Assembly (NCBI GenBank): GCA_043228905.1
Contig: JBHGNT010000618.1
Location: 1 to 19,055 of the forward strand
Source of the DNA: Azolla caroliniana
Taxonomy: Eukaryota; Plantae; Polypodiophyta
Direction: 5' to 3'
Length of the DNA stretch: 19,055 nucleotides
Shown here: piece by piece, positions 1,123 through 19,055 of the stretch
How the letters are laid out: the number at the start of each line of letters is the position of its first letter
Numbering within the stretch: position 1 is the first letter of the stretch
Notes under the pieces: generated by a model
What the model saw: the letters and a program-made list of their open reading frames with translations, nothing else
What the model was told of the DNA's origin: nothing
Database searches by the model: none
Made by a program: the position numbers and the translations under genes

Positions 1123-2604
1123 TCAATAGTCCCATAACAACAAGTCTTGGTATACTGTACATCCCTCATCAAATCCATTTCCATAAGATGGACATCCATT
1201 GATCTCATAGCTATTTAATGCATATTCAGTCACAGAAATGATCTCCCTAGACACAACACTCATGCTCTCTGGTATGATGAGTTGATCAAACACATGCCAA
1301 CAATGGTGTTCTTCCGGCGCCAGTGATGCCATACCGCCCCCAAAGCCGTCGATGATGAATGTGTCAGGATGTTCATGACAATGTAATATGCTTGATGTCA
1401 CCATGCCATCATGGCAAGATCTAGTTTCACCATCATTGTCCAACTTGTTTGATGTCATTGGGCAAGATATTGTTGATGGGTCGTCATGATTTTTGGTTTC
1501 TAGTGTTAATACATGCATGGTATCATGTGTACTACTACTACTACTACTACAATTACTAACAATGGATGTATCACAGCTAACATCATGTGCACTACTAACA
1601 TCATTGGATGATGGGTCATCTAGAGTGAAGCCATTAAGGGATGCAGCTGCTTTAGCGGCTGCCTGGATGTCTCTCGGGGCAGTCGAGGTAGGACGAGGAA
1701 GAATGTTGATGAGGCCAGGGAAATTGAGTTGAGCTTGTTTCCCTTTAAGGAAATGGGCAGCCACATCATAAGCGCGAGCCGCCATCTCGGGTCTAGGGTA
1801 AGAGCCAAGCCAAATGCGGGTTTTCTTGCGTGGCTCTCGGATCTCGGATACCCATTTGCCCCAACTCCTCTTCCTCACACCATGATATACGAAACCCGTG
1901 TCGGTCGATTGTGGGTCAATTGTATTGTTGCTCTCTTTTGGCAATAATCGATTAGCATCACATTCATTGGGAGCATTTAAATTTGAGGAGGATGAGGCCA
2001 TTGCCATGAGCAATGATGATACTCCCAAGCTCGCCGATTGAATCTCCGGTCTCTCCCTTGTTGTAGACAATGATGTCAACAAGTTAAGCTGTGTTTTCAC
2101 TGATGTTGGTGATGAGATTGGAGTTCCTATGTAGGAAGTTGATGAAGAACCATGAATCATGGAATTAAAGGAGCCTTCATTAGCCTCATACTCATATAAA
2201 ACACAATGGCTAGATGGAGCTACAATTTTAGTGGGTGTGTATGTATCATATGCATCACATTCATTGAGAGCATTTAGGTCTGAGGAGGAGGAGGATGCCA
2301 TTGCCATGAGCAATGATGATATTCCCAAGTTCACCGATTGAATCTCCGGTTTCTCCCTTGTTTTATACAATGATGTCAACAAGTTCAGCCGTGTTTTCGC
2401 TGATCTTGGTGATGAGATTGGAGTTCCTATGTAGGATGTTGATGAAGAACCATGAATCATGGAATGAAAGGAGCCTTCATTAGCCTCATAGTCATAAACA
2501 CAATGGCTAGATGGAGCTACAATTTTAGTGGGTGTGTATGTATCATATGCATCACATTCATTGAGAGCATTTAAGTCTGAGGAGGAGGAGGATGCCATTG
2601 CCAT
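1123..2604 (-). CDS. AP2/ERF transcription factor, DREB subfamily (group III / A-4, TINY-like), intronless, with a tandemly repeated N-terminal extension
   Basis: AP2 domain [57 protein letters not shown] at ~1717-1887, with the DREB-diagnostic V14/E19. It is followed by the [13 protein letters not shown] motif and a C-terminal LLWDY; stop TGA at 1123-1125. The ORF-track start (2697) is GTG. The first in-frame ATG is 2604, with equivalent ATGs at 2307 and 2007, so the true start is uncertain. Confidence 0.9.
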
Positions 2605-2851
2605 GGGTAATGATGATACTCCCAAGTTTGCCGATTGAATCTCCGGTCTCTCGCTTGTTGTAGACAATGATGTCAACAAATTCAGCTGTATTTTCACTGA
2701 TGTTGGTGATGAGATTGGAGTTCACATGTAGAATGTTGAGGAACAACCATGAATCATGGAATTAAAGGAGCCTTCATTAGCCTCATACTCATATAAAACA
2801 CAATGGCTAGATGGAGCTACAATTTAGTGAGTGTATACGTATCACATGCAT
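1955..2851. repeat. Three tandem copies of a 297-299 bp unit covering the 5' end of the AP2/ERF gene
   Basis: Copies start with GCATCACATTCATTG at 1955, 2252 and 2549. Similarity ends at GCAT 2848-2851. The protein repeat [16 protein letters not shown] / [17 protein letters not shown] is visible in the ORF. Confidence 0.97.
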
Positions 2852-6528: not shown

Positions 6529-6828
6529 TTTCATGAATATTGTCTAAAAAGGATTTGAACCAATGACCTTATGATACACATGTCAAAGCCTTACTATTGA
6601 GATACTTATTATAATACATATATATATTTGTTATCATGATTATTTCAGCTAGGTTCTAAAACTTTTTAGAATAATCTAGAAAATTCAGGAATATCCTAGA
6701 ATATTGTTGAACATTCTAGAAAATCTAGGAATACTCTTGAAGACCCTATAATTGAAAAATTGAATTTCTCAAACCAATTTGGTTCAATGCTAGTGTTAAT
6801 ACTCCAAAAACCTATTTTCTATACTTTG
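6529..6828 (+). mobile_element. Truncated LTR (LTR1) related to the LTR of chromovirus A, cut by the copia C insertion
   Basis: Start TTTCATGAATATTG resembles TGTCATGATATTG (reverse complement from 9033). Shared ATGACCTTATG; AAACCAATTTGGTTCAATGCTAGTGTTAATACTCC resembles GAACCAAATCGGTTCAACGCCACTCTTAAGCCTCC; similar CTAGAA-type repeats. Confidence 0.7.
6551..6604 (-). other. tRNA-like module 1 (Pol III A/B box) at the start of LTR1
   Basis: Minus strand TATCTCAATAGTAAGG...GGTTCAAATCC; A-box to B-box offset 43 nt; no intact acceptor stem. Confidence 0.7.
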
Positions 6829-7397
6829 TGTTGGGAAATCGGTCCCTCCGGATGGGATCTGGATGAGAACTGGAGGAGCCGGATCGGAGGAGCCGGATGA
6901 AGGAACCGGATCCGAAAGGGTTCTAGATGAGACCCGGAAACCGGATCGAGTGAATCTGGATGGATGTGGTGCAAACCGGATCCAAGGACATATGTGTAAA
7001 TATGTTTCATGGTGAGCCCATGGAGGCTATATTTGTAAATAGCCCTAAAGTCATATAAGTATAAATATGACTTAGGGCAATCACTTTATGTAGTGAGGTG
7101 TTGTTGTTGTATATTGTTGTATACACAAAGTGAGATATATATATATATATATATATATACAGAACTAGTTTTCTGTTGTAACCGCCGGTTTGGCGAAGAC
7201 ATAGAACTCGAGGTTGTTGCATCTGAGTCTCACATTGTATTCCTCCTCTCATAGTGATAGTTGGAGTTTGTGGGCTCCCGTAGTTTTTCCCGTTTAGGGT
7301 TTTTTCCACGTAAACATCTTGTGTTATCTCGGTTTTAGTTTGTTCTCTTTTATTCCTTGTTGAAGACTCGGTTGTGGCCGAGCGTTATTTCCGCACA
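6829..7397 (+). repeat. 5' LTR of copia C (~569 bp)
   Basis: Begins TGTTGGG and ends TTCCGCACA just before the PBS. Has a CCGGAT-rich U3, TATAAATA near 7061 and an internal (AT)n tract. The partner LTR is not in the window. Confidence 0.75.
7135..7159. repeat. (AT)12 microsatellite within the copia C LTR
   Basis: Direct reading of the sequence. Confidence 0.95.
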
Positions 7398-7400
7398 AAC

Positions 7401-7412
7401 CGGTATTAGAGT
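7401..7412 (+). other. Degenerate primer-binding site (tRNA-iMet) of copia C
   Basis: CGGTATTAGAGT versus consensus TGGTATCAGAGC, lying between the LTR end and the gag ATG at 7423. Confidence 0.7.
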
Positions 7413-7422
7413 GAACAAGAAA

Positions 7423-8553
7423 ATGGAAGAGTCATTCGGAAGCATGTTCAAGCTCACCGGCTCCAACTACTCAGTGTGGAAGTCGAAGATGAGGGACATG
7501 CTCATGGTCAAAGATCTCTGGTTGCCGATACAGTTCAGGGACAAGAAATTGGATAAAATCAATGCCGCGACATGGGAGGTGATGCACATGAAGACAACAA
7601 CATACATCCGGTGCTTCATCGACATGAGCCTGTACAACAACTTCAATGAAGAAAGTAAGGCTCATGTGCTATGGGAAAAAATCTACATGAGCCGTAAATC
7701 GGGTTTCGATATTCCGGAAGTTAGTGAGACTCCGGTACCAGAATGGATCCAACATGGCAGAGCACATGAATGCATAAATCAAATAACTTGGCTTTAAGTA
7801 CCTTTGGCCGATGAGGTACTTGCATTGCTCTTGCTCGGTTCCCTCCCGGATAGTTGGGAGACGTTGGTTGTCACTTTGGGCAATACCGGGTCGGAAGGAA
7901 AGTTCTTGTCCCTAGCAAGGGTAAAATCAAGCTTGCTCGATGAAGAAGCTCGCCGGAAGGACCGGGAGTCCGAAATAGACCCGAAGGCCTTGGTTGCAGA
8001 AGATGACCATAACTGGGGGAGAAACCGGTACCGGAGTCCTCAGAACCGGGAAAAGTTGGGGACAAGGTCGAAGTCAAAGGGGAGCCCTACTTGCTTCTAT
8101 TGTGGGAAGCCAAGGCACTTCCAGAAAAACTATCCGCATTTCCGGAAAGAGAAAGGAATCGACAGTGCCGATTCGAAGAAGGGTTCAGACTGGAAAGGCT
8201 CGGATCGGAAGGGAACGTTGGCAATCACGACAAGTGAAGAAGAACTACTGATAATTGCCGAGGACAATGAGTTAAACCTTGTCGGTGACGAGACAACGTG
8301 GGTTGTCGATTCCGGAGCGTCGTTCCACCTGACACCGGACCGAAGATTCTTCTCATCCTACACAGTCGGAGATCACAGTTGTGTTCGGATGGGGAATGAA
8401 GGAACCTGTCGAATCATTGACGTAGGAGATGTGTTGTTGACGACATCAACCGGATGCAAGTTGCTGTTGAAGGATGTCCGACACATTCCAGAGGTTTAGT
8501 TGAACCTAATATCAACTGGTCGGCTAGATGATAAAGGCTACACGGGTAGCATC
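7423..8553 (+). pseudogene. Copia gag-protease, frameshifted
   Basis: MFKLTGSNYSVWKSKMRD, LLLLGSLPDSWETLV, zinc knuckle CFYCGKPRHFQKNY (last Cys lost), protease WVVDSGASFH and LKDVRHIP. Broken by frameshifts and stops. Confidence 0.92.
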
Positions 8554-8702
8554 TGTCAGGAGCAGTACTAAGACATAGAAGTATTGTCAGGAACAATACT
8601 AAGACAGAGAATGAATTAGTACTAAAAGATGAGGATTAATACTAAGGGAGGTGTAGAACTCTCGAGAGAAGGAAAGAGTGAGTGAGAGAGAGATATCGAG
8701 AA

Positions 8703-8707
<5 letters not shown>

Positions 8708-8733
<26 letters not shown>
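8708..8733. repeat. (GA)n microsatellite within LTR2
   Basis: Direct reading of the sequence. Confidence 0.95.
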
Positions 8734-8963
8734 ATGATGATATCAAAAGATATATATTATGTTAAGAGAATATACAATAGTAGGTAGGAGGCTTAAGAGT
8801 GGCGTTGAACCGATTTGGTTCAAAATAATGCCTTGTACCTCTTTTGATAGTGTTCTCAGGAGTACTCCTGAAGTTTCTTGAATGTTCTGGAGAAATCTGG
8901 AATATACATCAATTTTCTATAGTAAAACTTAAATGAAAATTATATCCTTTCTATTACAACAAA

Positions 8964-9021
8964 TAGTTTAATGGTCAAGAGCTCGACCCATGTAACATAA
9001 GGTCATGGGTTTGAGTCTTGC
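8964..9021 (+). other. tRNA-like module 2 (Pol III A/B box) at the start of LTR2
   Basis: TAGTTTAATGGTCAAGAGC...GGTTTGAGTCT; A-to-B offset 44 nt. Deviations from TAGCTCAATGG and GGTTCGAGTCC are C>T changes. Confidence 0.7.
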
Positions 9022-9025
9022 AATA

Positions 9026-9544
9026 TCATGACACTATCTCCCCTTTAAAACGACGAGTGTCACGAGTCGTTTTGGATTGAGGACCCGGTTTGTCTGGATA
9101 TTGACGATGGAAGTCTTCAAGAAGAGCACGAGCATTGCTCACATTCTCTATTGGTTCCCAAGTACACTCCCTGGGACTATATCCTAGCCAATCAACTAAA
9201 TAGTAGAGCTTGTTATGAAGAATCTTGGAATCGAGGATGGCGGCAACCTCGTACTCAGGTCCATCTTCAAGTTCGATCGGGGGTGGACGTTGTTTAATAC
9301 CGACCTGGGATGGTGCTGTCTTGATAGGGTTCGAGGAGAGAACTATGAAACACCGGATGTATCCGAAGTTGTGGAGATAGATCGAGATGAAAAATGACAT
9401 CATTAATTTTTCCGATAATACGGAAAGTACCTAATCGCCGATAATCCAACTTCTCGCATGGGTGAGTAGTCTTGATGTGTCGTCGAATTAGCCATACCTG
9501 ATCTCCAATGTTAAAACTGGATGGAAGCCGATGAAGATCCACGT
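9026..9544 (-). pseudogene. Integrase C-terminus and chromodomain of element A (one frameshift)
   Basis: ORFs 9294..9593 and 9026..9403 supply consecutive parts. The stop codon lies a few bases inside the LTR. Confidence 0.9.
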
Positions 9545-9572
9545 TGTCGTGCCTTTCGGCTCCGGATCGTTG

Positions 9573-10283
9573 TGTGACTCTGGTGGGAACCATTGAGGTT
9601 TTGGACTAGGAGAAAGAAGAATTTGAGACAAGTTTATAGTTATGGATAGATTATTAGAAAGAGAGATAGAAACTTGTGAATCCCACAAGTATAATGTATT
9701 AGATTAACCAACATTCAAATAAGAATATGAATTTAGATTGAAAGAGAGATATAAGAAACTTGTGAATCCCACAAGTATAGATTATTAGATTTATTAATAT
9801 TTAGAATCCTAATTACAATTTATCATAGATTGGAAGTGAGAGATATGGAAACCTTCGTGAATCCCACGAATATAATTTATTAATTATAGGTGTTTTAGGA
9901 AATATATCCAATTTCCCAAATATTTCACACACTTATTACATTGTGCTCCCCATCCTTATATAGTGATGAGAGAGTCTTAATAATCCATGCTTTTTCTATA
10001 GATAGACTCTATGCTTTCTCTAACATGCTTTTTCTAAAGTGATCCTACTTTTTCTAACTTGATGTGTTTTGATCGATTATGGTGTTCATGCACGCTACAT
10101 GTGCATGCGTAACTTTTTCTTTTATCATGCATTTTCTTCTAACTAAAGTTTATCCTAGCGTGAACTTACGTTTCTATGTGGGACGTTTACTTTTTTAAAC
10201 TAATGATATGCTAGTGTAATGGTAAGGCTTTATATTATAAACATGGAGGTGCAAGGTTCAAATCTTGCCCTATGCATGTAATA
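9573..10283 (-). mobile_element. Probable solo LTR (LTR3) nested in the gypsy B LTR
   Basis: AT-rich block between GC-rich LTR parts, with a tRNA-like head, TATATAA at ~9956-9962 and pyrimidine-rich downstream repeats. Termini TATTAC...GTCACA are approximate and no TSD was found. Confidence 0.6.
10212..10268 (+). other. tRNA-like module 3 (Pol III A/B box) at the start of LTR3
   Basis: TAGTGTAATGGTAAGGC...GCAAGGTTCAAATCTTGC; A-to-B offset 43 nt; GCAAG/CTTGC stem around the B box. Confidence 0.75.
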
Positions 10284-10535
10284 TGTACTTTTATAATTTC
10301 TTCTATTTACAAATACGTCTCTTCATCCGGTTCTCACCAGTTCTCCTTATTGGTCCTCTTCGTCCGTTTCTCACCGACTCTCACCGGCCTTCTTCATCCC
10401 GCTCTTGCCGGTCTGCTTCGTCCCATCCGGAGGGATCAAAAATGCAATTTTCTCAGAGTGTGCGATTTACACTACGACACTCGCCCCCTCCAAACCCACA
10501 CATCCTTCGGTATGTGCCGTAGTTCCCGATGCTCA

Positions 10536-11987
10536 TTATTCACCTTCATCCGTAACACTCTCCGATTCTCCCCTTATGTCGACTACGAGTTGAAGTCCAC
10601 TTTCTTCGCTTTTCGCATCACCGCACTCTTTGTCCAGTTGCTCCTCGTTGTCGGTCTTGTCTATGGTTACATAGGGTTCGTCGTCAGTCCGCTTCTTGAA
10701 TATCTTTACCCGTTTCCCCGCTATAGGCACTCGTAGTATCGTTCCATCCAACTCACATAGTCAGTAAGTTCCATTGTCGAAAACTGTCCGAACCTCGTAT
10801 GGCCCCAACCACCTTTTCACAAACCACCTTTTCGCAAACTTTTGTATCGTTTTGTGTTGATGATTGAAACTACTGTCATAGACAATCACCCAATCTCCTT
10901 CTTCAATCTTCCGTGGTCGTAATCGGTGGTTTGTGTCGAACTGGCGTTTGTTACGGAATCACGCTTCTTGTTGTCGGTGTGTTGCTTCCGCTATGTCTTC
11001 CGGTCTTCCCTATAGTTGTCGTATCCGGACCGTTAGTAGTTCTTCCCGGCTCATCTCTTCCTTCCACGGTAGCATTCTCCATGTCGCGATCGCGGTTTCC
11101 GTCGGCATTACCGGTGGTTGTCCGGTCATAAGTTTTGTTGGCCTATAACCGGTTACGGAGCTATGCGTCGTCCGATCCACCCATAGTGCATACGGGAGCA
11201 TCTGCGGCCAATCTTTCACCCTTCTGTCGCATGCTTTAGCAAGTGCTTTGACGATCGGACTATGTCCTCGTTCGATTTTCCTGTTGGCCTCCGGATTGTA
11301 TGCCGTTGTTAGTGTTAACCAAACTCCATGTTTGGTGAAGAGTTCCCTAGCTTTATCAGAGTCAAGTTCTCCCTGATCCGCAATCACTTGTCCTACGCAC
11401 CAGTACCTGCAAAACACCTCCTCCAAAAGAAATTGGCATACCACAGAACCCGTTTTCCTTCGTAACGCCCTTTGTGAGATCTTCCCGAGCTAGCACCAAG
11501 TACTTCTTTTTTCTGATCCTGGTTGGCATGGCTACAATGTCGACCATCCATTTGAAGTTGATTGTCGGTGAGAATGTTGGATGTAACTCATCTCGATGTC
11601 GAACTCCGGAGTAGATTTGACACTTCTCGCAGCTTTCCATGAACTCCGCTATATCTTTGTACATATTCTTCCACCAATATTTTTGTTTGATTTTCACAAA
11701 AGTTGCCCATGTCCCTCAATGTCCAGCCCAATCGGATTCGTGAAACTCGGACATTATCCGGTTTCATTGCTCTTTTGTCCCGACTACCCGAAGTGGTATG
11801 CCATCCGGTCTTTTCGGCTCCCTCCATATTAATCCATTTTTCAAGAAGAACTTTTGGACTTGCCTCTTCTTCCTTCGGATCTCAGCTCTCTTCTCTTTAT
11901 CGTCCGTTGATTCCTCAATCTCTTGTAGCACCTTCCCGATCATCAAGATTTCTCCTTCGTATTCTTCTTCTCGGAATTCTCGGATTA
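10536..11987 (-). pseudogene. Gypsy B integrase region (zinc finger, core, GPY), multiply disrupted
   Basis: YWWKNMYKDIAEFMESCEKCQ, KWMVDIVAMP, VIADQGELD, TTAYNPEANRKIERGH, GPYEV and LDGTILRVPIAGKRVKIF. Confidence 0.9.
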
Positions 11988-11992
11988 CATTT

Positions 11993-12372
11993 TGTTGAGC
12001 AACAAGCTCAACCGGATCGGCATCCAGAAGGATGAGCTGGTGAGCAAGTGAGCCGGTGAGCTGGGGAGCCAGTTAGCTGGATCAAGCAGTAACCGGAAGC
12101 CAAGTAGCAGCTAGTCTACTAGGGAGTTAATATCTCGTAGTTAGTGTCAAACGCTCGTGTGAGCATTGAAGTACACAATACTTCTGTCAGTCCGTATGGA
12201 CTTGTATAAAAGTGCTCACTGAGCACATCCTATGTACAGACTCAGTAGTATTTTTTATTTGAGTTTCTGTGTGCTCTCTCTCTCTATCTCTCCGGAGTAC
12301 TGTTAAGCTCTCCATTAAACCTGTTCCCTGTTTTTTGTTTTCTATTGCTTTCGCACGCTATTTGTTTCTACA
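11993..12372 (+). repeat. 5' LTR of copia D (380 bp)
   Basis: TGTTGAGC...TTCTACA; aligns with 17325-17694. Confidence 0.97.
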
Positions 12373-12384
12373 TGGTATCAGAGC
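12373..12384 (+). other. Primer-binding site (tRNA-iMet) of copia D
   Basis: TGGTATCAGAGC directly after the 5' LTR. Confidence 0.95.
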
Positions 12385-12466
12385 GAGAGGGTTGAGAACC
12401 TCTGCAACCGACATTCGCTTTCGCAAGAAGAAAACCTAACCTTTGTAAAGAACAAATAAAAAACAA

Positions 12467-15400
12467 ATGGATAGAGGAATGCCTAGCTCGCTTCCGGTGG
12501 AGAAGCTCGATAGATCCAACTACGCACCTTGGTCATACAAGGTGCATCAATACATACTTGGGCATGGTTACTGGAGCTATGTCGACGGAGCTAACGACAC
12601 AACACCTGATGCGGCACACAAGGACTTCCCGATGTGGGAACAATCAGCAAGTAGAGTGATGTACTGCTTTGCGTCCAGTGTCGGAGACCAGCTGCTGAGC
12701 CACATCCGAGATGCCAAGACGCCGAAACAGGCTTGGGGAAACCTGAAGAAGGTGTTCGCCACAAGCACTACAGCCCGAAAGCTGCAACTCCGAAAGGAGT
12801 TGAGCAATGTACGACAGAAGGACATGTCGGTGGCTGATTACACGGCGCGAATCAAAGAGATCTGTGACTCGCTTGCCTCTATCAACGTCACTATAGAGGA
12901 AGACGAGATGGTACAGGTCTGTCTTAGGGCTTGGCGTCTAAGTTCTGAGCTTTCCGGACAATAATATGTACGAGGGAGAATACACCATGATTTTTTGACT
13001 TACAATCGATGCTCCTTGTAGAGGAGAACCACGCCGGTGCATCAACAAGTGCACCCACCGACAGCCGGATGCTGTACAGGGAGGCGGATCGGCCCCGTGG
13101 GCGTGGTGGACGAGGCGGGTTGGCATGCAATGGACGCGGCCGGCAAGGGCAAGACCGACGGCACAGAGACCGTGCCAATAGCAGTTCCGGGACCTCCACA
13201 ACCACGGGGAGTCAAGGTGGCGCTGGAGGCCGGCAAAACAAATCCACCACGGAATGCTGGTACTGTGGTAAAAAGGGCCATAGAGAAAGTGAGTGCTAGA
13301 AGAAACACGCCGAGTCGGACGAATCCGGATTCGGTAGAGAGAACCGGCAATACTCGCACTACGCAGAAGGATCGGGAGGATCCAAAACCGGAAAAGCCGG
13401 TAAAGGGCCAGCCTTGGTGATGAAACACGTGGCTAACTCGATGAAGAAAACCACTTCCAAATCGGAGGAAGTGTGGTACGTTGATTCCGGTTCATCAAAT
13501 CACATGACGAACCATAAAGAGTGGTTCTCCTTCCTGGAGAAACCGGAACAACCGGGAGTTGTCGAAACTGGAGACGACACTCACCCAATCGTGCATATTG
13601 GTGAAGTCCCTTGGAGCCACGTCGGACAGAGGGGGAAGCTGATGAACATATTACGCGTTCTGACTATCACGAAGAACCTGGTGTCGGTCGGACAAATCGT
13701 CAACCAGGGAATGCAGGTGCGGTTTACGCACCTCAGGTGCTTCATCGAGGAGGGCCAGATTATTGCGCAAGGGCGCAGAGACGGGAGGATGTTCATCCTC
13801 GACACCAATGACGTCGGCACAGCTTTGTTCGCCAAAGGACAGAAGATTGAATCGAACATCGATCTCTGGTAGAAGCGGATCGGCCACGTCAATTACCGGA
13901 GGCTTCAAGACCTACAAATGAAACAAGTTGTTTTCGGTTTGCCAAAGTTTAGTGGCCGGAAGGCCCAAGTATGTGAAGCCTGCAAACTCGGGAAGCAACA
14001 CCGGCTTCCATTCCCCACCGAACGAAACCGTAGCCGTAACAAGCTCGACCTTATTCATTTGGATGTATGGGGACCGACACAGAACGCGAGTCTTGGCGGG
14101 AGTCGATACTTCGTCTCCTTCATCGATGACTATAGCTGACACACATGGATCTACCTCATTGAGTGGAAGAACGAAGTCTTCGACTGTTTCCAGAACCTCC
14201 AAAGCATGGTGGAGCGGGAATTGGAGACGAAGATCAAGTGCCTACAGTTAGATGGCGGAAAAGAATATTTTTCCGGCTAATTCTACAGTTCTCTGCAGTA
14301 AACAGGAATTCGGAGAGAGTTCAACTAAAGATACACACCGGAGCAAAACGGTGTGGCCGAAAGGAAGAACCAATCACTTGTCGACGCGGCAATGGCAATG
14401 CTGGAAGAGAAGAGCATGCCCCATTTCTACTAGGCGGAGGTGGTCCGGACGGCCGTCTACATCCAAAACCGGATCGATGACAAGGTGTCCGCGCATGAGT
14501 TGTATTTCGGGTGCAAGCCGAACTTGAGACACCTTCGGATTTTCGGCAGCATAGCATATGTGCATGTGCCGGATGAGAAGCGGAGGAAGCTGGATGCAAA
14601 ATCGGAGAAGTGCATCCTCCCCGGCTACTCACATGAGCAAAAGGGGTATAAGAGTTATAACCCCCGGACGAAGCAGGTCCGAGTTAGCTGCGATGTTGAG
14701 TTTGATGAGACGGCATCATGGTATGCCTTACCGGCTTCGACTTCCGACCTCGACCCGATACCGGAGGATGAGGCTAGTGAGCCTGAACCGGTCTAGATAG
14801 AAGATGATGAATCCGGGCCTCAAGAAAAGAGTCCGGAATCGTTTCGGTTGAGTGGGCCGAATGAGAGACTGGGTCAATACGACCAGTCAGAAGAGGAACC
14901 GACGAGTAGTGAAGACGGTTCACGCGCAAGGAACCGAGGAGACGGTTCACGTGCAAAGAGAAGGGGAAGAAGAAGATGTCGGATTATGAAACCGGTAATG
15001 ATGAGTCGGATCAGAGTTGATCCGACTCCGGAAAGAAAAATGACGGTTCTTCGGCATCGAAGACCGAACCGGCCAAGAAGGGCCTCAAACCGGGTAATAG
15101 TGGGTTACGTTGGTCAACCCGCAAGAAGGAACTTGTTAAGCGGTACGGGTACAATGAGTACATGGCGCATCACTATGCGTACATGACCAAGGTGGCGGAA
15201 GTGCGTGAGCCGGAGAGCTACACAGAAGCGGCAAGGGATGCAAATTGGCGTGTCACTATGGAGGAAGAGATGCGGGCACTTGATGCCAATGAGACATGGG
15301 ACTTGGTTGACCCTCCCCGTCACTGTAAACCGATCGGATGCAAGTGGGTGTATAAGGTAAAGTACAACGCCGACGGTTCAGTTAACCGGTACAAGGCCCG

Positions 15401-17037
15401 GTTAGTGGCGAAGGGATACGCACAAACCCACGGAATCGACTACGATGAGACCTTCGCTCCGGTAGTGAAGATGACGACGGTCCGTGTGGTGGTGGCGGTT
15501 GCTGCGGCAAGGGAGTGGCATCTTCACCAGATGGACGTGACGAATGCATTTCTTCAAGGCGATCTAGAAGAAGAGGTCTTTATGACCCAACCTCCCGGTT
15601 TTCAGTCGGAACTAAACAAGTCGGCTGTATGCCGGCTGAAGAAGTCACTTTATGGCCTGAAGCAAGCCCCCCGAGCTTGGAATGTGAAGATTACACACCG
15701 GTTACGTAAGTTGGGGTTTGCAGCCTCCAAGTCCAACTCTTCGTTGTTCATCCGACAAGGTCCGGACGGTCCGGTTTGCATCTTGTTGTATGTTGATGAT
15801 GTAGTCATCACCGGGCCCGGACTCGATGAAATCCGCCAAGTCAAGTCCCAGCTGTCAGACGCATTTGAGATGAAGGACCTGGGGGACCTTCCCGATTTCC
15901 TTGGGATTGAGGTGATCCGAACCCCCGACGACATATTGCTCTCACAAAGACACTATGTGTTCAATATACTGTACAAGTTCGGCATGACAGAATGCCGATC
16001 TGTCTCTACACCCTTGGACCAGAAACAGAAGCTATGTCCCAACTTCAGACTGGCCTGCGATGAGAAACGGTTCTGCAATTTGTCGGAAGCCTTATATATT
16101 TGACCATCACCCGACCCGACATCAACTATCCGGTCGGTGTGATTAGCCAATTCATGCAGAAGCCGACCGTAGAGCATCTTCAGTGCGCGCACTGAATACT
16201 GCAATATATGAGCGGTACGAAGGACCGGGGACTGTTATACCGGCGAGGTATGACCGAAGAGCTAGTCGGCTACACGGATGTCGTATGGGCCGGCGATGCA
16301 TCAGATCGTCGTTCAACTTCCGGCTATATGTTTTCCCTCGGTAGCGCGGTTGTTGCATGGAGCAGCAAAAAGCAGCCAACAGTGGCTCTGTCGAGCACCG
16401 AGGCTGAGTATCGGGGCGCGACCGTTGCCACCTGTGAAGCCATTTGGCTTCAACAACTGCTGCAAGACCTGCGGATCGAGGTGTCGACCCCAATCCTGAT
16501 CTACTGCGACAACATAAGCAGCATGCAGCTCGCCAAGAACCCCGTATTCCATGCTCGCACAAAGCACATCAAAGTGCACTACCACTTCGTGCGTGAGCAT
16601 GTCCTGAGCGGTGAAGTCGAACTTTGGTATGTTCATATGGATCGGCATGTTGCTGACATCTTCACCAAACCGCTCGGATCAGACAAGTTGCAACACTTCA
16701 TCTCGACGTGCCACACTTGAGGGGGAGAACGTGCAAAGACACCGGAACGGGCAAAGACAAGGAGAATGCCGATTGCGCCAGTGAGGGAAGAACCGATAAA
16801 GGGAGAGACAAGAAGAAGAAAGGAGCCGAGTCAACAAAGGAATTTGACACATCCGAACAAGTCAGAACAAACAGCAACGGAGGCAGAGTCAAGAAGGACA
16901 GAGCCGACTGGAAGAAGAAGGCCAAGACCCGGACATGGTCCGATATTGTGAAGGGTTTGGAACCGGAAGACGAATCGGGAGCAACCGATTCGGACAAGAG
17001 CGGGAACGAATCAGAGACAGCCGATTTGGTTCTATAG
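12467..17037 (+). pseudogene. Copia D gag-pol polyprotein with many stops and frameshifts
   Basis: Gag EKLDRSNYAPW; zinc knuckle CWYCGKKGHRESEC; protease WYVDSGSSNHMT; integrase IHLDVWGP / FIDDYS; RT YKARLVAKGY, QMDVTNAFLQG, LYVDD; RNase H SSTEAEY, YCDN, ARTKHI, ADIFTKPL. Confidence 0.96.
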
Positions 17038-17312
17038 AAGGATTCAGAAGAACCGGATCAATTCAAGGTCAGGAGGACGAGAAGGCACCAAAAGTTGACG
17101 CCAACACGAAGGGATCGGCGAATCGGCAAAAGCCAAAGTCACAACAGTGAGGGAGCTGAATTGGAAGTCGACCAAGGAAGTCGAGGTGCGCAGGAACAGA
17201 AGGGTCACGACAAACGGGACCGGACCGGACGAGGAGGAGTGACGCCAGAAGGAGCCAGGTAGAAGGGCTGGGTGCCATGGAGACTGACACTATGATCCGA
17301 CCTCAAGTTGAG

Positions 17313-17324
17313 CTTGAGGGGGAG
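17313..17324 (+). other. Polypurine tract of copia D
   Basis: CTTGAGGGGGAG abutting the TG of the 3' LTR. Confidence 0.9.
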
Positions 17325-17694
17325 TGTGGAGCAGCAAGCTCAACCGGATCCGGATCGGCATCCAAAAGGATGAGCCAGTGAGCTCGGGAGTCGGTTAGCT
17401 GGATCAAGCAGTAACTGGAAGCCAAGTAGCACCTAGTCTACTAGGGAGTTAATATCTCGTAGTTAGTGTGAGACACTCGTGTGAGCATTGAAGTACACAG
17501 TACTTCTGTCAGTCCATATGGACTTGTATAAAAGTTCTCACTGACAACATCCTATGTACAGACTGAATAGTATTTTTGAATTGAGTTTCTGTGTGCTCTC
17601 TCTCTTTGTCTCTCCGGCGTACTATTAAGCTCTCCATTAAACCTGTTCTCTGTTTTTTGTTTTCTATTGCTTCCGCACGCTATTTGTTTCTACG
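17325..17694 (+). repeat. 3' LTR of copia D (370 bp; terminal CA changed to CG)
   Basis: Aligns to the 5' LTR with roughly 28 substitutions, one 6-bp indel and one 16-bp indel (hand count). Confidence 0.97.
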
Positions 17695-17699
17695 CATTT

Positions 17700-18484
17700 A
17701 CTCAGCATATGTGCTCTAAAGCAAAGTAGTCTTCAGAAACTTCTTCATTATCGGATTTGGCTATGTCATCTCCGGAATGCAATCTCGAAGCACCTTGTTC
17801 ATCGCGTTCATCATATGTGCAACTGAGTTTGTCGCTCCTTATGGTAGTGTGCACATTTGGACTAATCCTATCTGTGTTTGCATGGTAGTGATGTCTCGGC
17901 TCTCCACGGCTAGTTGGAATTGGTCATACCCCGAGTATAGGTCTCTGATGGAGTATATCGCATGACCGGCAAATGCTTCCGCAAATTCGTCCACTATTGG
18001 ACTAACTCCGGAGTTCCGGATCGTGACCTTGTTCACCTGTTGCAAGTCTTCTATAAATCGGAGTGACCCATTCTTCTTCGGAACCGTAAACCATCGATTT
18101 GAGTATGGAGCGTTTGATAGCTCTAGAATCCCCATCGCCACCTTCTCTTTGAGCAAGTCGATGATTTTGGGAATATGCACCCACGGCACCGGAATCGGCT
18201 TCAGGTTTTCACGGCACATGGTCAATCGTGAAGATCACCATCGGCTCCACTATCTTCATATCAACGCACCCTATCTCCTTCAATATGAATGCAAATGCTT
18301 TCCCATGTTGTTCCAACATCCCATGAAATCGTTCTTCTTCATTTTGTAAAAGGAAACCACCTCCCCTGATCTAAAGTTTCTTCGGGGTCTCATCTGTGAA
18401 GGCATGTCCGATATCCACGGACATCCGAAGTGTTGGATCTCCCGAGACTTCTTTCCTCTTTTGCTCACTATTGGCGGGTAACGG
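17700..18484 (-). pseudogene. Gypsy B reverse transcriptase, N-terminal half
   Basis: HGKAFAF..KEIGCVD, NLKPIPVP, SNAPYSNRWFTVPKKNGSLRFI.DLQ.VNKVTIR, DLYSGYDQFQL, TLP*GATNSVAHM. Confidence 0.9.
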
Positions 18485-18590
18485 TGTCGTGACGATTTTC
18501 GGCTACGGTGTGAAACCGAGTGAGACGAATAAACCAAGGATGTGCAACATTGCACATGCACTTAGCAAATAAACCTAGCCTAGTGGCACT
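18485..18590 (-). mobile_element. Probable 3' end (U5) of an LTR related to gypsy B, abutting the B pol region
   Basis: Minus strand ends CCGTAGCCGAAAATCGTCACGACA, resembling the B LTR end CCGGAGCCGAAAGGCACGACA. Pol coding sequence follows with no PBS. The boundary near 18590 is approximate. Confidence 0.55.
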
Positions 18591-19055
18591 TGAGTTCATA
18601 CAGAGGGGTGCAAGCAAGGATTGAACCTTGCACCTCTAACATACAAGATAATTGCCTTACCACTAGGACAACTATCATATAGTGTAGATTATATGTATTT
18701 CCTTTTCATATACAAATTATAGACGAAACAACCATAGAAAACCATGTGCACAAAACCATGGTTTTAAACCCATGGTTTGTGCATGACATAAGCAAAACCG
18801 TGTGCACAAAACCATGGTTTTAGCCCATGGTTATGTGCATGTCACGAGCATGGAAAGACCTATAAAAGCCTCTAGTTGGGCTTGTGTAAGGGGGGCTCAA
18901 TATGTGATATCACCAACACCATTATCATCAATATAATATTTGTCTTTATCTTCTTCATATTTTTCTACTTCTCAAGTGTACAATTTTTCTTCTTCTCAAG
19001 TAAACCATTTTCATTTAATCTTACATTGATCGTCATCTAGCGTCGATAATTCCGC
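18591..19055 (+). mobile_element. Probable LTR (LTR4), related to LTR3 in its head, running off the window
   Basis: tRNA-like head, palindromic 56-bp repeats, TATAAAAG at 18861 and a pyrimidine-rich tail. Start coordinate approximate. Confidence 0.6.
18614..18670 (-). other. tRNA-like module 4 (Pol III A/B box) at the start of LTR4
   Basis: Minus strand TGTCCTAGTGGTAAGGC...GCAAGGTTCAATCCTTGC; A-to-B offset 43 nt; 6-bp GCAAGG/CCTTGC stem. Confidence 0.75.

What the first reader, a model, noticed from the sequence alone, without database searches (positions are those of the whole stretch)
6529..18670. Four LTRs from two families each begin with an antisense tRNA-like Pol III promoter module
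Seen: tRNA-like segments at 6551-6604(-), 8964-9021(+), 10212-10268(+) and 18614-18670(-). Each has an A-box-like and a B-box-like motif, 43, 44, 43 and 43 nt apart. Each is antisense to its LTR and points out of the LTR's 5' end; for LTR1-3 the B box ends ~15-22 bp from that end. Modules 1 and 2 share CATAAGGTCAT.GGTT; modules 3 and 4 share GGTAAGGC...GAGGTGCAAGGTTCAA..CTTGC. Established: this offset matches positions 8 to 52 of a tRNA; Cassandra TRIMs carry 5S rRNA-derived Pol III sequence in their LTRs; TFIIIC-bound B boxes can act as chromatin insulators. Inference: these lineages captured a tRNA or SINE head as a fixed U3 component, possibly an insulator against silencing, an outward Pol III promoter or a small-RNA source. 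I know of no description of this arrangement but cannot check the literature.
Basis: partly seen in the sequence, partly recalled or inferred. Interest (0 to 1): 0.85.

Follow-up and report, generated by a model that had tools for sequence, protein, structure and literature searches.

The report
Backward tRNA promoters in Gypsy LTRs
Protein-coding jumping genes of a likely non-seed plant keep a backward-facing copy of the two short signals that mark tRNA genes in their end repeats, without the tRNA fold, and these signals likely recruit the tRNA-gene transcription factor to shield or tune the element's own promoter, a use not found in the papers searched.

Summary
All four modules are real: A and B boxes 43, 44, 43 and 43 nt apart, antisense to their LTRs. 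The anatomy needs correcting. Modules 1-2 lie 23 and 16 nt from the 5' end of Tcn1-like chromovirus LTRs. Modules 3-4 lie 215 and 133 nt inside Phygy-like Gypsy LTRs. The window's two Copia families have none.

In related chromovirus loci, 42 of 53 non-redundant LTR heads carry the antisense pair (sense 0 of 53; shuffles 0.1). This holds across clades with 68-76% Pol identity, including 12 of 13 contigs with a whole pol frame. Boxes and spacing are conserved; the cloverleaf is not. The elements are self-primed, so the module is unlikely to be a primer site. One clade has a second antisense module inside pol.

Best reading: a TFIIIC/Pol III landing site acting on LTR chromatin (0.5, untested). 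Closest known: Helenus, which is non-autonomous and sense-oriented. The scan earlier noted antisense tRNA-like stretches in retrotransposons of other genomes, not this arrangement.

The parts
6529..6828 (+). LTR1: 5' 300 nt of a Tcn1-like chromovirus LTR (TG start decayed to TT, no PPT before it), interrupted by Copia-A
   Evidence: 78% over 275 nt to the LTR that follows chromodomain and PPT in L036; matches to L024/L025/L029 stop at 6827; 66-70% to LTR2
6552..6604 (-). Module 1: A box 6594-6604, B box 6552-6561, spacing 43, B box 23 nt from the LTR end, T5 run right after the B box
   Evidence: 38.0 bits with a profile built from the loci only
6829..7397 (+). Copia-A 5' LTR, no module; decayed PBS at about 7401, gag/protease remains to about 8500
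   Evidence: no A/B hit
8554..9033 (-). LTR2: 480-nt 3' LTR of a Tcn1-like chromovirus; PPT at 9034-9043; self-primer motif about 223 nt in
   Evidence: contigs bridge chromodomain and PPT into the module
8964..9017 (+). Module 2: A box 8964-8974, B box 9008-9017 (position 56 is T in this copy), spacing 44, B box 16 nt from the LTR end
   Evidence: 44.4 bits
9029..9544 (-). Integrase C-terminus (SH3) and group I chromodomain with the three aromatic residues; frameshifted copy
   Evidence: Pfam PF00385 and PF24626; translation
9545..10479 (-). LTR3: 935-nt 3' LTR of a Phygy-like non-chromovirus Gypsy; PPT 10480-10490; NCGN target bases at 9541-9544; TATA about 517 nt in
   Evidence: 19 contigs continue as integrase DNA behind 9540. 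The 5' start rests on PPT, TG and the terminal inverted repeat, not on read ends
10212..10264 (+). Module 3: A box 10212-10222, B box 10255-10264, spacing 43, B box 215 nt inside LTR3
   Evidence: 0 mismatches; RF00005 11.8 bits; 19.5 bits, E 1.9e-5, with the chromovirus-only profile, best of 20 shuffles 8.2
10491..18484 (-). Deleted internal part of the Phygy-like Gypsy (integrase about 11010-11715, RT fragment 17839-18234), split by Copia-B
   Evidence: named RT relatives from Adiantum and Riccia; no chromodomain among the Pfam domains of the 120 listed hits
11993..17694 (+). Nested Copia-B, LTRs 88% alike, 5-bp target duplication; no module (internal negative control)
18485..19055 (+). LTR4: likely Phygy-type LTR running off the window; same six first letters class as LTR3, NCGN bases at 18481-18484, TATA at about 18860
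   Evidence: 24-30 contigs continue as the host element behind 18485; purine-rich loose ends before it in X3 (6 contigs, agreement 0.55); X11 record 14 bridges 18485-18665
18618..18670 (-). Module 4: A box 18660-18670, B box 18618-18627, spacing 43, B box 133 nt inside LTR4
   Evidence: 1 mismatch; 73% over 75 nt to module 3; not detected by the chromovirus-only profile

Best explanation
The modules are conserved tRNA-type A/B box pairs in the U3 of protein-coding Gypsy elements, pointing away from the element's TATA promoter, and they likely work as DNA landing sites for TFIIIC (probably with TFIIIB and Pol III) that would shield or tune that promoter rather than make a functional RNA.

Shown: presence, antisense orientation, U3 position 130-290 nt upstream of the R start, lineage-wide conservation of boxes and spacing, loss of the cloverleaf, no conserved terminator, self-priming of the host element.

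Inferred: origin by capture of a tRNA gene or SINE head; binding of TFIIIC; a barrier or open-chromatin effect between flanking chromatin and the Pol II promoter of the 5' LTR. The backward orientation would keep Pol III from running through that promoter. A chromodomain element that likely inserts into heterochromatin would gain most from such a barrier.
For: 1. Frequency. 42 of 53 non-redundant chromovirus LTR heads have the antisense pair at up to 2 mismatches, against 0 of 53 sense, 0 of 48 in LTR nt 130-260, 0 of 53 in upstream coding DNA and 0.1 in shuffles.
2. Independent anchoring. With the B box alone as anchor, an exact ARTGG lies 37 or 38 nt upstream in 36 of 48 (search range 25-59).
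3. Spacing. A-B spacing SD is 0.75 (n=44), against 9.4 for LTR end to B box and 38 for A box to R start (n=28).
4. Identity. Mean pairwise identity is 0.90 and 0.92 in the box cores, 0.45 in the spacer and 0.39-0.41 in the flanks (41 modules).
5. No fold. Cloverleaf pairing is 55.0% against 54.7% shuffled; anticodon stem 37%; acceptor stem 36%; RNAalifold finds no pair.
6. No fixed product end. T4 lies within 60 nt of the B box in only 24 of 41, at scattered places.
7. Variation pattern. Position 59 takes all four bases and 57 only A or G, as in the generic B box. T47, T54, T55, G53 and A58 show no wobble-type change.
8. Autonomy. 13 of 23 loci of 3 kb or more carry a 1183-1235-aa pol frame ending at the LTR; 12 of these have the module.
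9. Recurrence. A chromovirus only 38% identical over 39 chromodomain residues also has it (L052), and a second antisense module sits in the protease-RT linker of one clade.
10. Precedent. TFIIIC at tRNA genes and ETC sites acts as a heterochromatin barrier in yeast and as an insulator in human cells (PMC12409998, passages). A group I chromodomain of a fungal element binds H3K9me2/3 (PMC3350952, passages).
Against: No binding, chromatin or expression data. TFIIIC tolerates A-B spacings of 32-93 bp, and ETC barrier sites are B-box sites, so a pure barrier does not need the strict 43/44 spacing or a conserved A box; those fit real Pol III initiation or an RNA-level constraint better. G46, T47 and T35 (40, 41 and 40 of 41) lie outside the classical boxes and are unexplained. 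Phygy-like LTRs also carry the module but their relatives show no chromodomain. 11 of 53 heads fail the 2-mismatch test, one of the 42 (L011) is an off-register hit, and two dropped loci (L069, L072) appear to lack the module. The A-box pattern was chosen after I had seen the loci, and the 41-module statistics are on box-selected rows. The loci come from one series of assemblies, and the long ones are probably collapsed multi-copy contigs. Barrier evidence comes from yeast and mammals, not plants.
Confidence: 0.5

Rival explanations
1. The module is an active outward Pol III promoter whose RNA is the point. From the 3' LTR it would make antisense RNA over U3, PPT and the integrase end; from the 5' LTR it would read into the flank. 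The RNA could feed small RNAs, self-limit the element, or damp the neighbouring Pol II promoter until stress.
For: A box, B box and tRNA-length spacing are all conserved, more than a B-box barrier needs. An AT-rich tract lies upstream of the A box. Heat-shock-element-like dimers (recalled motif) number three or more in 28 of 53 LTR heads.
Against: No conserved terminator (T4 within 60 nt in 24 of 41, T5 rarely), no conserved fold, and a CAA start motif in only 17 of 41 (motif recalled).
Confidence: 0.22
2. The module works in the genomic RNA, where it is complementary to the D loop and T loop of tRNAs. It would bind host tRNA in U3 to help packaging, dimer formation or strand transfer, as the U3 half of the Ty3 primer site does.
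For: It explains the antisense orientation, the U3 position next to the PPT, the tRNA-length spacing and the conserved variable-loop letters. Precedent: Ty3 bipartite site (PMC5371799, passages) and a tRNA-Lys3-like stretch in HIV-1 U3-R (title and one sentence in PMC6468702; original not read).
Against: The chromoviruses have no tRNA primer site. In 12 loci the bases after the LTR pair with the R start, and this pairing covaries in one clade while the U3 B box stays unchanged. Position 59 takes all four bases and the stems are free, which fits no single tRNA. Wobble-allowed changes are nearly absent, and the invariant A58 is usually methylated and cannot pair (established knowledge, recalled).
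Confidence: 0.13
3. TFIIIC bound near the U3 end of the cDNA helps integration: it tethers the intasome to Pol III sites or makes each copy a landing site for later copies.
For: In the chromovirus family the B box lies 11-63 nt from the integrase-bound end. Ty3 integrates at Pol III genes (bioRxiv 2021.07.27.453949, search listing only).
Against: The offset is variable, and is 133-215 nt in the Phygy-like LTRs. The Copia-A insertion in LTR1 is about 225 nt from the A box, not at the predicted start site.
Confidence: 0.07
4. A neutral relic of an old SINE or tRNA insertion, carried along by LTR copying.
For: No tRNA fold is left; some copies have lost the module.
Against: Boxes are 0.90-0.92 identical while spacer and flanks are near 0.4 across clades of 68-76% Pol identity. 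Indels are common on both sides but rare between the boxes.
Confidence: 0.05

Closest known systems
Helenus (TRIMp3; Kojima 2024, PMC10886601; main text parts 1-4 and 6 of 6 and one supplement passage read)
   Same: tRNA-derived sequence inside LTRs, with conservation centred on boxes A and B and little functional tRNA left; one plant family (Selaginella). The paper also says that 'not a few LTRs' in Repbase contain part of a tRNA, without describing the non-TRIM cases.
   Different: Helenus is non-coding, 311-1263 bp and tRNA-primed. In the five LTRs I saw in the supplement the tRNA part is sense and is proposed to transcribe the element. Here the hosts encode gag-pol (about 5.3 kb), have a TATA promoter, are self-primed, and the module is antisense and outward.
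Cassandra and Ajax (5S-derived TRIMp3; as described in PMC10886601)
   Same: A Pol III internal promoter taken from a small-RNA gene and fixed in LTRs.
   Different: 5S type, not tRNA type; non-autonomous; Cassandra is transcribed from it.
Tcn1 clade chromoviruses (PMC2864245, PMC6317226, PMC3350952; passages)
   Same: Group I chromodomain, gag and pol frames of about 400 and 1200 aa, LTRs of 415-535 bp, no tRNA primer site, self-priming, non-seed plants.
   Different: The passages read mention TATA and CAAT boxes but no tRNA-like LTR module. Clade membership was not tested on a reference tree.
Phygy non-chromovirus Gypsy (PMC6317226, passages)
   Same: NCGN target bases beside LTR3 and LTR4; no chromodomain in relatives; named RT relatives in a fern and a liverwort.
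   Different: No module described; assignment is by features only.
tRNA genes and ETC sites as TFIIIC barriers (PMC12409998, passages)
   Same: A/B or B boxes that act through TFIIIC occupancy.
   Different: Host loci in yeast and mammals, not carried by a retrotransposon.
Ty3 bipartite primer site and HIV-1 U3-R tRNA-like stretch (PMC5371799 passages; PMC6468702 citation)
   Same: U3 sequence complementary to tRNA arms.
   Different: Those pair with one specific primer tRNA; here there is no tRNA primer and the variation is generic.

Membership tests
Helenus / TRIMp3 | tRNA-derived A and B boxes inside the LTR | tested here: met
Helenus / TRIMp3 | Short non-coding element (about 300-1300 bp) | tested here: not met
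   gag and 1183-1235-aa pol frames in 13 of 23 long loci; coding remains in the window
Helenus / TRIMp3 | Module in sense, able to transcribe the element | tested here: not met
   0 of 53 sense, 42 of 53 antisense; sense in the Helenus LTRs seen
Helenus / TRIMp3 | tRNA primer-binding site | tested here: not met
   self-priming pairs in 12 chromovirus loci; not testable for the Phygy-like elements
tRNA gene | Cloverleaf with four stems | tested here: not met
tRNA-derived SINE | Own body, A-rich or repeat tail and target duplications, mostly outside LTRs | tested here: not met
   Of 72 profile hits in the loci, 62 at the 3' LTR head, 8 at other chromovirus LTR heads, 1 a local duplication, 1 in an unknown repeat; share of contigs running on unlike 0-0.05. 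The loci were chosen for their chromodomain, so a free SINE elsewhere is not excluded
Type 2 Pol III promoter | A box and B box consensus at workable spacing | tested here: met
Type 2 Pol III promoter | TFIIIC/TFIIIB binding and Pol III transcription | not testable with these tools
   no raw-read RNA or ChIP data available
Tcn1 chromovirus (hosts of modules 1-2) | Group I chromodomain with aromatic cage at the integrase end | tested here: met
Tcn1 chromovirus (hosts of modules 1-2) | Self-priming, no tRNA primer site | tested here: met
Tcn1 chromovirus (hosts of modules 1-2) | RT-RH-INT tree placement with reference Tcn1 elements | not tested
   no reference set held; the tree has only the fetched loci
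Phygy (hosts of modules 3-4) | NCGN target preference, no chromodomain | tested here: met
   2 of 2 junctions NCGN
Phygy (hosts of modules 3-4) | Tree placement; internal region of LTR4's element | tested here: inconclusive
   only similarity hits; LTR4's element lies outside the window

The most novel reading that the evidence does not exclude
Autonomous Gypsy retrotransposons of non-seed plants have captured tRNA-type promoters at least two or three times (chromovirus U3, Phygy-like U3, the pol linker of one clade), always backwards, and use them as portable TFIIIC boundary elements. Each insertion brings its own insulator against the heterochromatin it lands in, and the genome carries very many extra TFIIIC sites as a result.
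Probability: 0.33. Interest if true: 0.87.

Novelty: new variant of a known kind. Interest (0 to 1): 0.7.

Why it matters
Pol III promoters in LTRs were known from non-coding miniature elements, where they drive the element's own RNA. Here they are kept backwards in coding, Pol II-type elements across a whole lineage, so they must do something else. If they bind TFIIIC, a high-copy transposon supplies its own chromatin barrier. That would offer a testable answer to how heterochromatin-targeting chromoviruses stay transcribable, give a first handle on TFIIIC insulation in plants, and mean that these LTRs scatter TFIIIC sites genome-wide. A one-base B-box mutant in an LTR reporter tests it directly.

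Tried and rejected
No whole genome is held for this window, so genome-wide copy counts and a both-LTRs test on single intact insertions could not be done. Contigs with two LTR copies (L020, L028, L029) have the module in both, but they look collapsed or chimeric.

No RNA holder listed. Both read-laying runs used contigs only, so they give no information on expression or strand, and depth is no copy number.

Viral-contig scans gave nothing useful: one distant locus, no pattern match, no confirmed relative. The prokaryote scan gave one weak unrelated hit. As a result the Phygy-like LTR families have no locus set; evidence for modules 3-4 is two LTRs plus read tables.

The AP2/ERF search did not place the host.

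Rfam on the pol-linker module of L028 gave no tRNA hit; L073 gave 12.1 bits.

Rejected ideas:
- Real tRNA genes.
- Module 1 as part of the Copia-A LTR.
- LTR4 as the minus-strand 5' LTR of the deleted Gypsy; it is a separate insertion at 18485.
- The U3 B box pairing with the self-primer; the two do not covary.
- Tandem arrays in long contigs; likely assembly collapse.

Literature: ten searches found no description of an antisense tRNA-type module in LTRs of autonomous plant elements. The library lacks most subscription journals and Repbase Reports. PMC6786969 (passages and a supplement search) and PMC13570524 (passages) added nothing beyond citing Helenus. Supplements of PMC2864245 and PMC6317226 were not read and may hold Tcn1/Phygy LTR sequences that bear on taxonomic range.


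Full report
1. THE WINDOW. It is a nest of plant LTR retrotransposons beside an AP2/ERF gene. No genome is held. The element types and the named RT relatives (Adiantum, Riccia) suggest a non-seed land plant; this is inference. From left to right: a chromovirus LTR head (6529-6828); a Copia-A 5' LTR from 6829 with gag remains; a minus-strand chromovirus 3' end (chromodomain, PPT, LTR2 8554-9033); a Phygy-like Gypsy inserted in its integrase (LTR3 9545-10479, deleted interior to 18484); Copia-B nested in that (11993-17694, LTRs 88% alike, 5-bp duplication); and a further LTR inserted at 18485.

2. THE OBSERVATION. The four A/B pairs are at the stated places, with spacings 43, 44, 43, 43 and 2, 1, 0, 1 mismatches to the recalled consensus. 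A whole-window scan finds these four plus one overlapping hit, against a mean of 0.47 and a maximum of 2 in 30 shuffles. All are antisense to their LTR. The distance from B box to LTR end is 23, 16, 215 and 133 nt, so only modules 1 and 2 begin their LTR. LTR4's start is fixed by 24-30 contigs that continue as the host element behind 18485, and its orientation by purine-rich loose ends before it and a TATA box at about 18860. LTR3's 3' end is supported by 19 contigs behind 9540; its 5' start rests on PPT, TG and the terminal inverted repeat. Neither Copia family has a module. ARAGORN finds no tRNA. RF00005 gives about 12 bits at best and nothing for module 2.

3. FAMILY TEST. The chromodomain abuts the 3' LTR, so a search with it samples LTR heads without regard to the module. 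It gave 77 loci (best 80 of 119 confirmed stretches). 65 had a callable PPT and TG start with at least 110 nt behind it. 12 were dropped: 5 too short, 7 without a call. Of the dropped, L010 and L013 carry the module, and L069 and L072 appear to lack it. 53 were non-redundant below 95%. Of these, 42 have the antisense pair at up to 2 mismatches and 47 at up to 3. Controls at 2 mismatches: 0 of 53 sense, 0 of 48 in the next 130 nt of LTR, 0 of 53 in coding DNA, 0.1 in shuffles. One of the 42 (L011) is off register. Because I chose the A-box pattern after seeing the loci, I also anchored on the B box alone. 49 of 53 have it at up to 1 mismatch (15 of 53 on the sense strand), 30 perfectly (0 sense). 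In 36 of 48 an exact ARTGG lies 37 or 38 nt upstream. A profile built from loci only scores modules 2, 1 and 3 at 44.4, 38.0 and 19.5 bits, against at most 8.2 in 20 shuffled windows; it misses module 4, which matches module 3 at 73% over 75 nt. In runs of organisms A, B and C, contigs cover module 2 like the rest of LTR2 and some bridge chromodomain and PPT into it. Contigs from four runs join module 4 to one or other flank.

4. THE HOSTS ARE AUTONOMOUS AND SELF-PRIMED. 13 of 23 loci of 3 kb or more have a 1183-1235-aa pol frame ending at the LTR, most with a gag frame of about 400 aa; 12 of the 13 have the module. Their clades are 68-76% identical in Pol. These contigs are probably collapsed multi-copy sequence and come from one series of assemblies. 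In 12 loci the bases after the LTR are complementary to the R start behind the TATA box. One clade changed both sides together while keeping its U3 B box. This fits the Tcn1 clade, predicted to self-prime (PMC6317226, passages; PMC2864245 found no primer site in SM-Tcn1, passages). The NCGN bases beside LTR3 and LTR4 fit Phygy. Neither assignment was tested on a reference tree.

5. WHAT IS CONSERVED. Among 41 box-selected modules, T8, A14, T16, G18, G19, G53, T54, T55, C56 and A58 are each kept in 37-41; position 57 is A or G, and 59 is free. Mean pairwise identity is 0.90 (A core), 0.92 (B core), 0.80 (variable-loop letters), 0.45 (spacer) and 0.39-0.41 (flanks). A-B spacing has SD 0.75, against 9.4 and 38 for the distances on either side (the A box was sought within 38-50 nt there). 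The cloverleaf is gone: 55.0% paired against 54.7% shuffled, anticodon stem 37%, D stem 61.5%, T stem 67.7%, no covariation signal; acceptor stem 36%; no consensus fold. Ten of 41 single modules do fold below z = -2, mostly T-arm-like hairpins by eye. There is no fixed terminator. G46, T47 and T35 are also nearly invariant, which I cannot explain.

6. RECURRENCE. A divergent chromovirus in L052 (38% over 39 chromodomain residues) has the same antisense head. In one clade (L021, L021b, L024, L028, L029; 5 of 15 pol stretches examined) a second antisense A/B pair with spacing 42 lies in the protease-RT linker, where the B box keeps three residues constant inside a divergent peptide. It scores 0-3 mismatches; scattered hits at 3 mismatches occur by chance (14-16 in shuffles against 26 observed), but this one recurs at one position. 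Whether the chromovirus and Phygy-like modules share an origin is open.

7. MECHANISM. Shown: a type 2 promoter signature under selection, back to back with the Pol II promoter, in elements that need neither a Pol III promoter for their RNA nor a tRNA primer. Inferred: TFIIIC binding and a chromatin role (0.5). TFIIIC-bound tRNA genes and ETC sites are barriers in yeast and insulators in human cells (PMC12409998, passages). A group I chromodomain of a fungal element reads H3K9me2/3 (PMC3350952, passages). In the 5' LTR the module sits between the flank and the promoter. Against a pure barrier: TFIIIC accepts 32-93-bp spacing and ETC sites are B-box sites, so the strict spacing and A box suggest true initiation (RNA rival, 0.22). 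Pairing of U3 with tRNA as in Ty3 (PMC5371799, passages) would explain orientation and spacing, but self-priming, the free position 59 and the lack of wobble changes argue against it (0.13). An integration role (0.07) and a neutral relic (0.05) are weak.

8. KNOWN SYSTEMS AND NOVELTY. Helenus is the closest: tRNA-derived boxes in LTRs (PMC10886601). It fails three membership features here: non-coding, sense orientation and tRNA priming. That paper notes that other Repbase LTRs contain partial tRNA sequence, so the bare fact may be on file. Ten searches found no account of this arrangement. Earlier scan notes report antisense tRNA-like stretches in Gypsy or Copia elements of other genomes, nothing by sequence, and a different tRNA-related feature in this genome; none was tested here.

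9. VERDICT. The feature is real, lineage-wide and under selection in the chromovirus family, and less fully documented in the Phygy-like LTRs. It is a new variant of a known kind with untested function. Interest 0.7.

Noticed in passing
L028:2954-3005 (-), L021:1011-1062 and 6335 (-), L029:2654 (-), L023, L024, L025: A second antisense A/B module (spacing 42) lies inside the pol frame, in the protease-RT linker, of one chromovirus clade. The same clade has changed its self-primer away from a B-box-like sequence.
   Followed up: partly
window 8802-8811 (-) and the R start of most loci: The self-primer at the R start itself matches the B-box consensus on the sense strand, without a good A box. 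It is lost in one clade, so it may be coincidence.
   Followed up: partly
window 6660-6745; first 300 nt of 28 of 53 LTR heads: Arrays of heat-shock-element-like repeats (recalled motif) lie between the module and the TATA box, suggesting heat-inducible LTRs.
   Followed up: partly
tRNA position 35 of the module (alignment A3 column 36): T is kept in 40 of 41 modules, 11 nt before the conserved G46/T47, outside any known box. Unexplained.
   Followed up: no
window 6872-7002 and 10304-10423: The Copia-A LTR and the Gypsy LTR3 share a CCGG-rich stretch (63% over 132 nt): possible exchange of U3 sequence between superfamilies.
   Followed up: no
L027:290-540: An unrelated repeat holds several partial A-box- and B-box-like motifs, one A box resembling module 4's; possibly another LTR family with such modules.
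   Followed up: no
window 1123-2721 (-): An AP2/ERF reading frame with three or more copies of a 297-300-nt repeat upstream of the AP2 domain.
   Followed up: no
window 18738-18849: Two 56-nt palindromic repeats in LTR4's U3 give weak, below-threshold microRNA-like Rfam hits.
   Followed up: no
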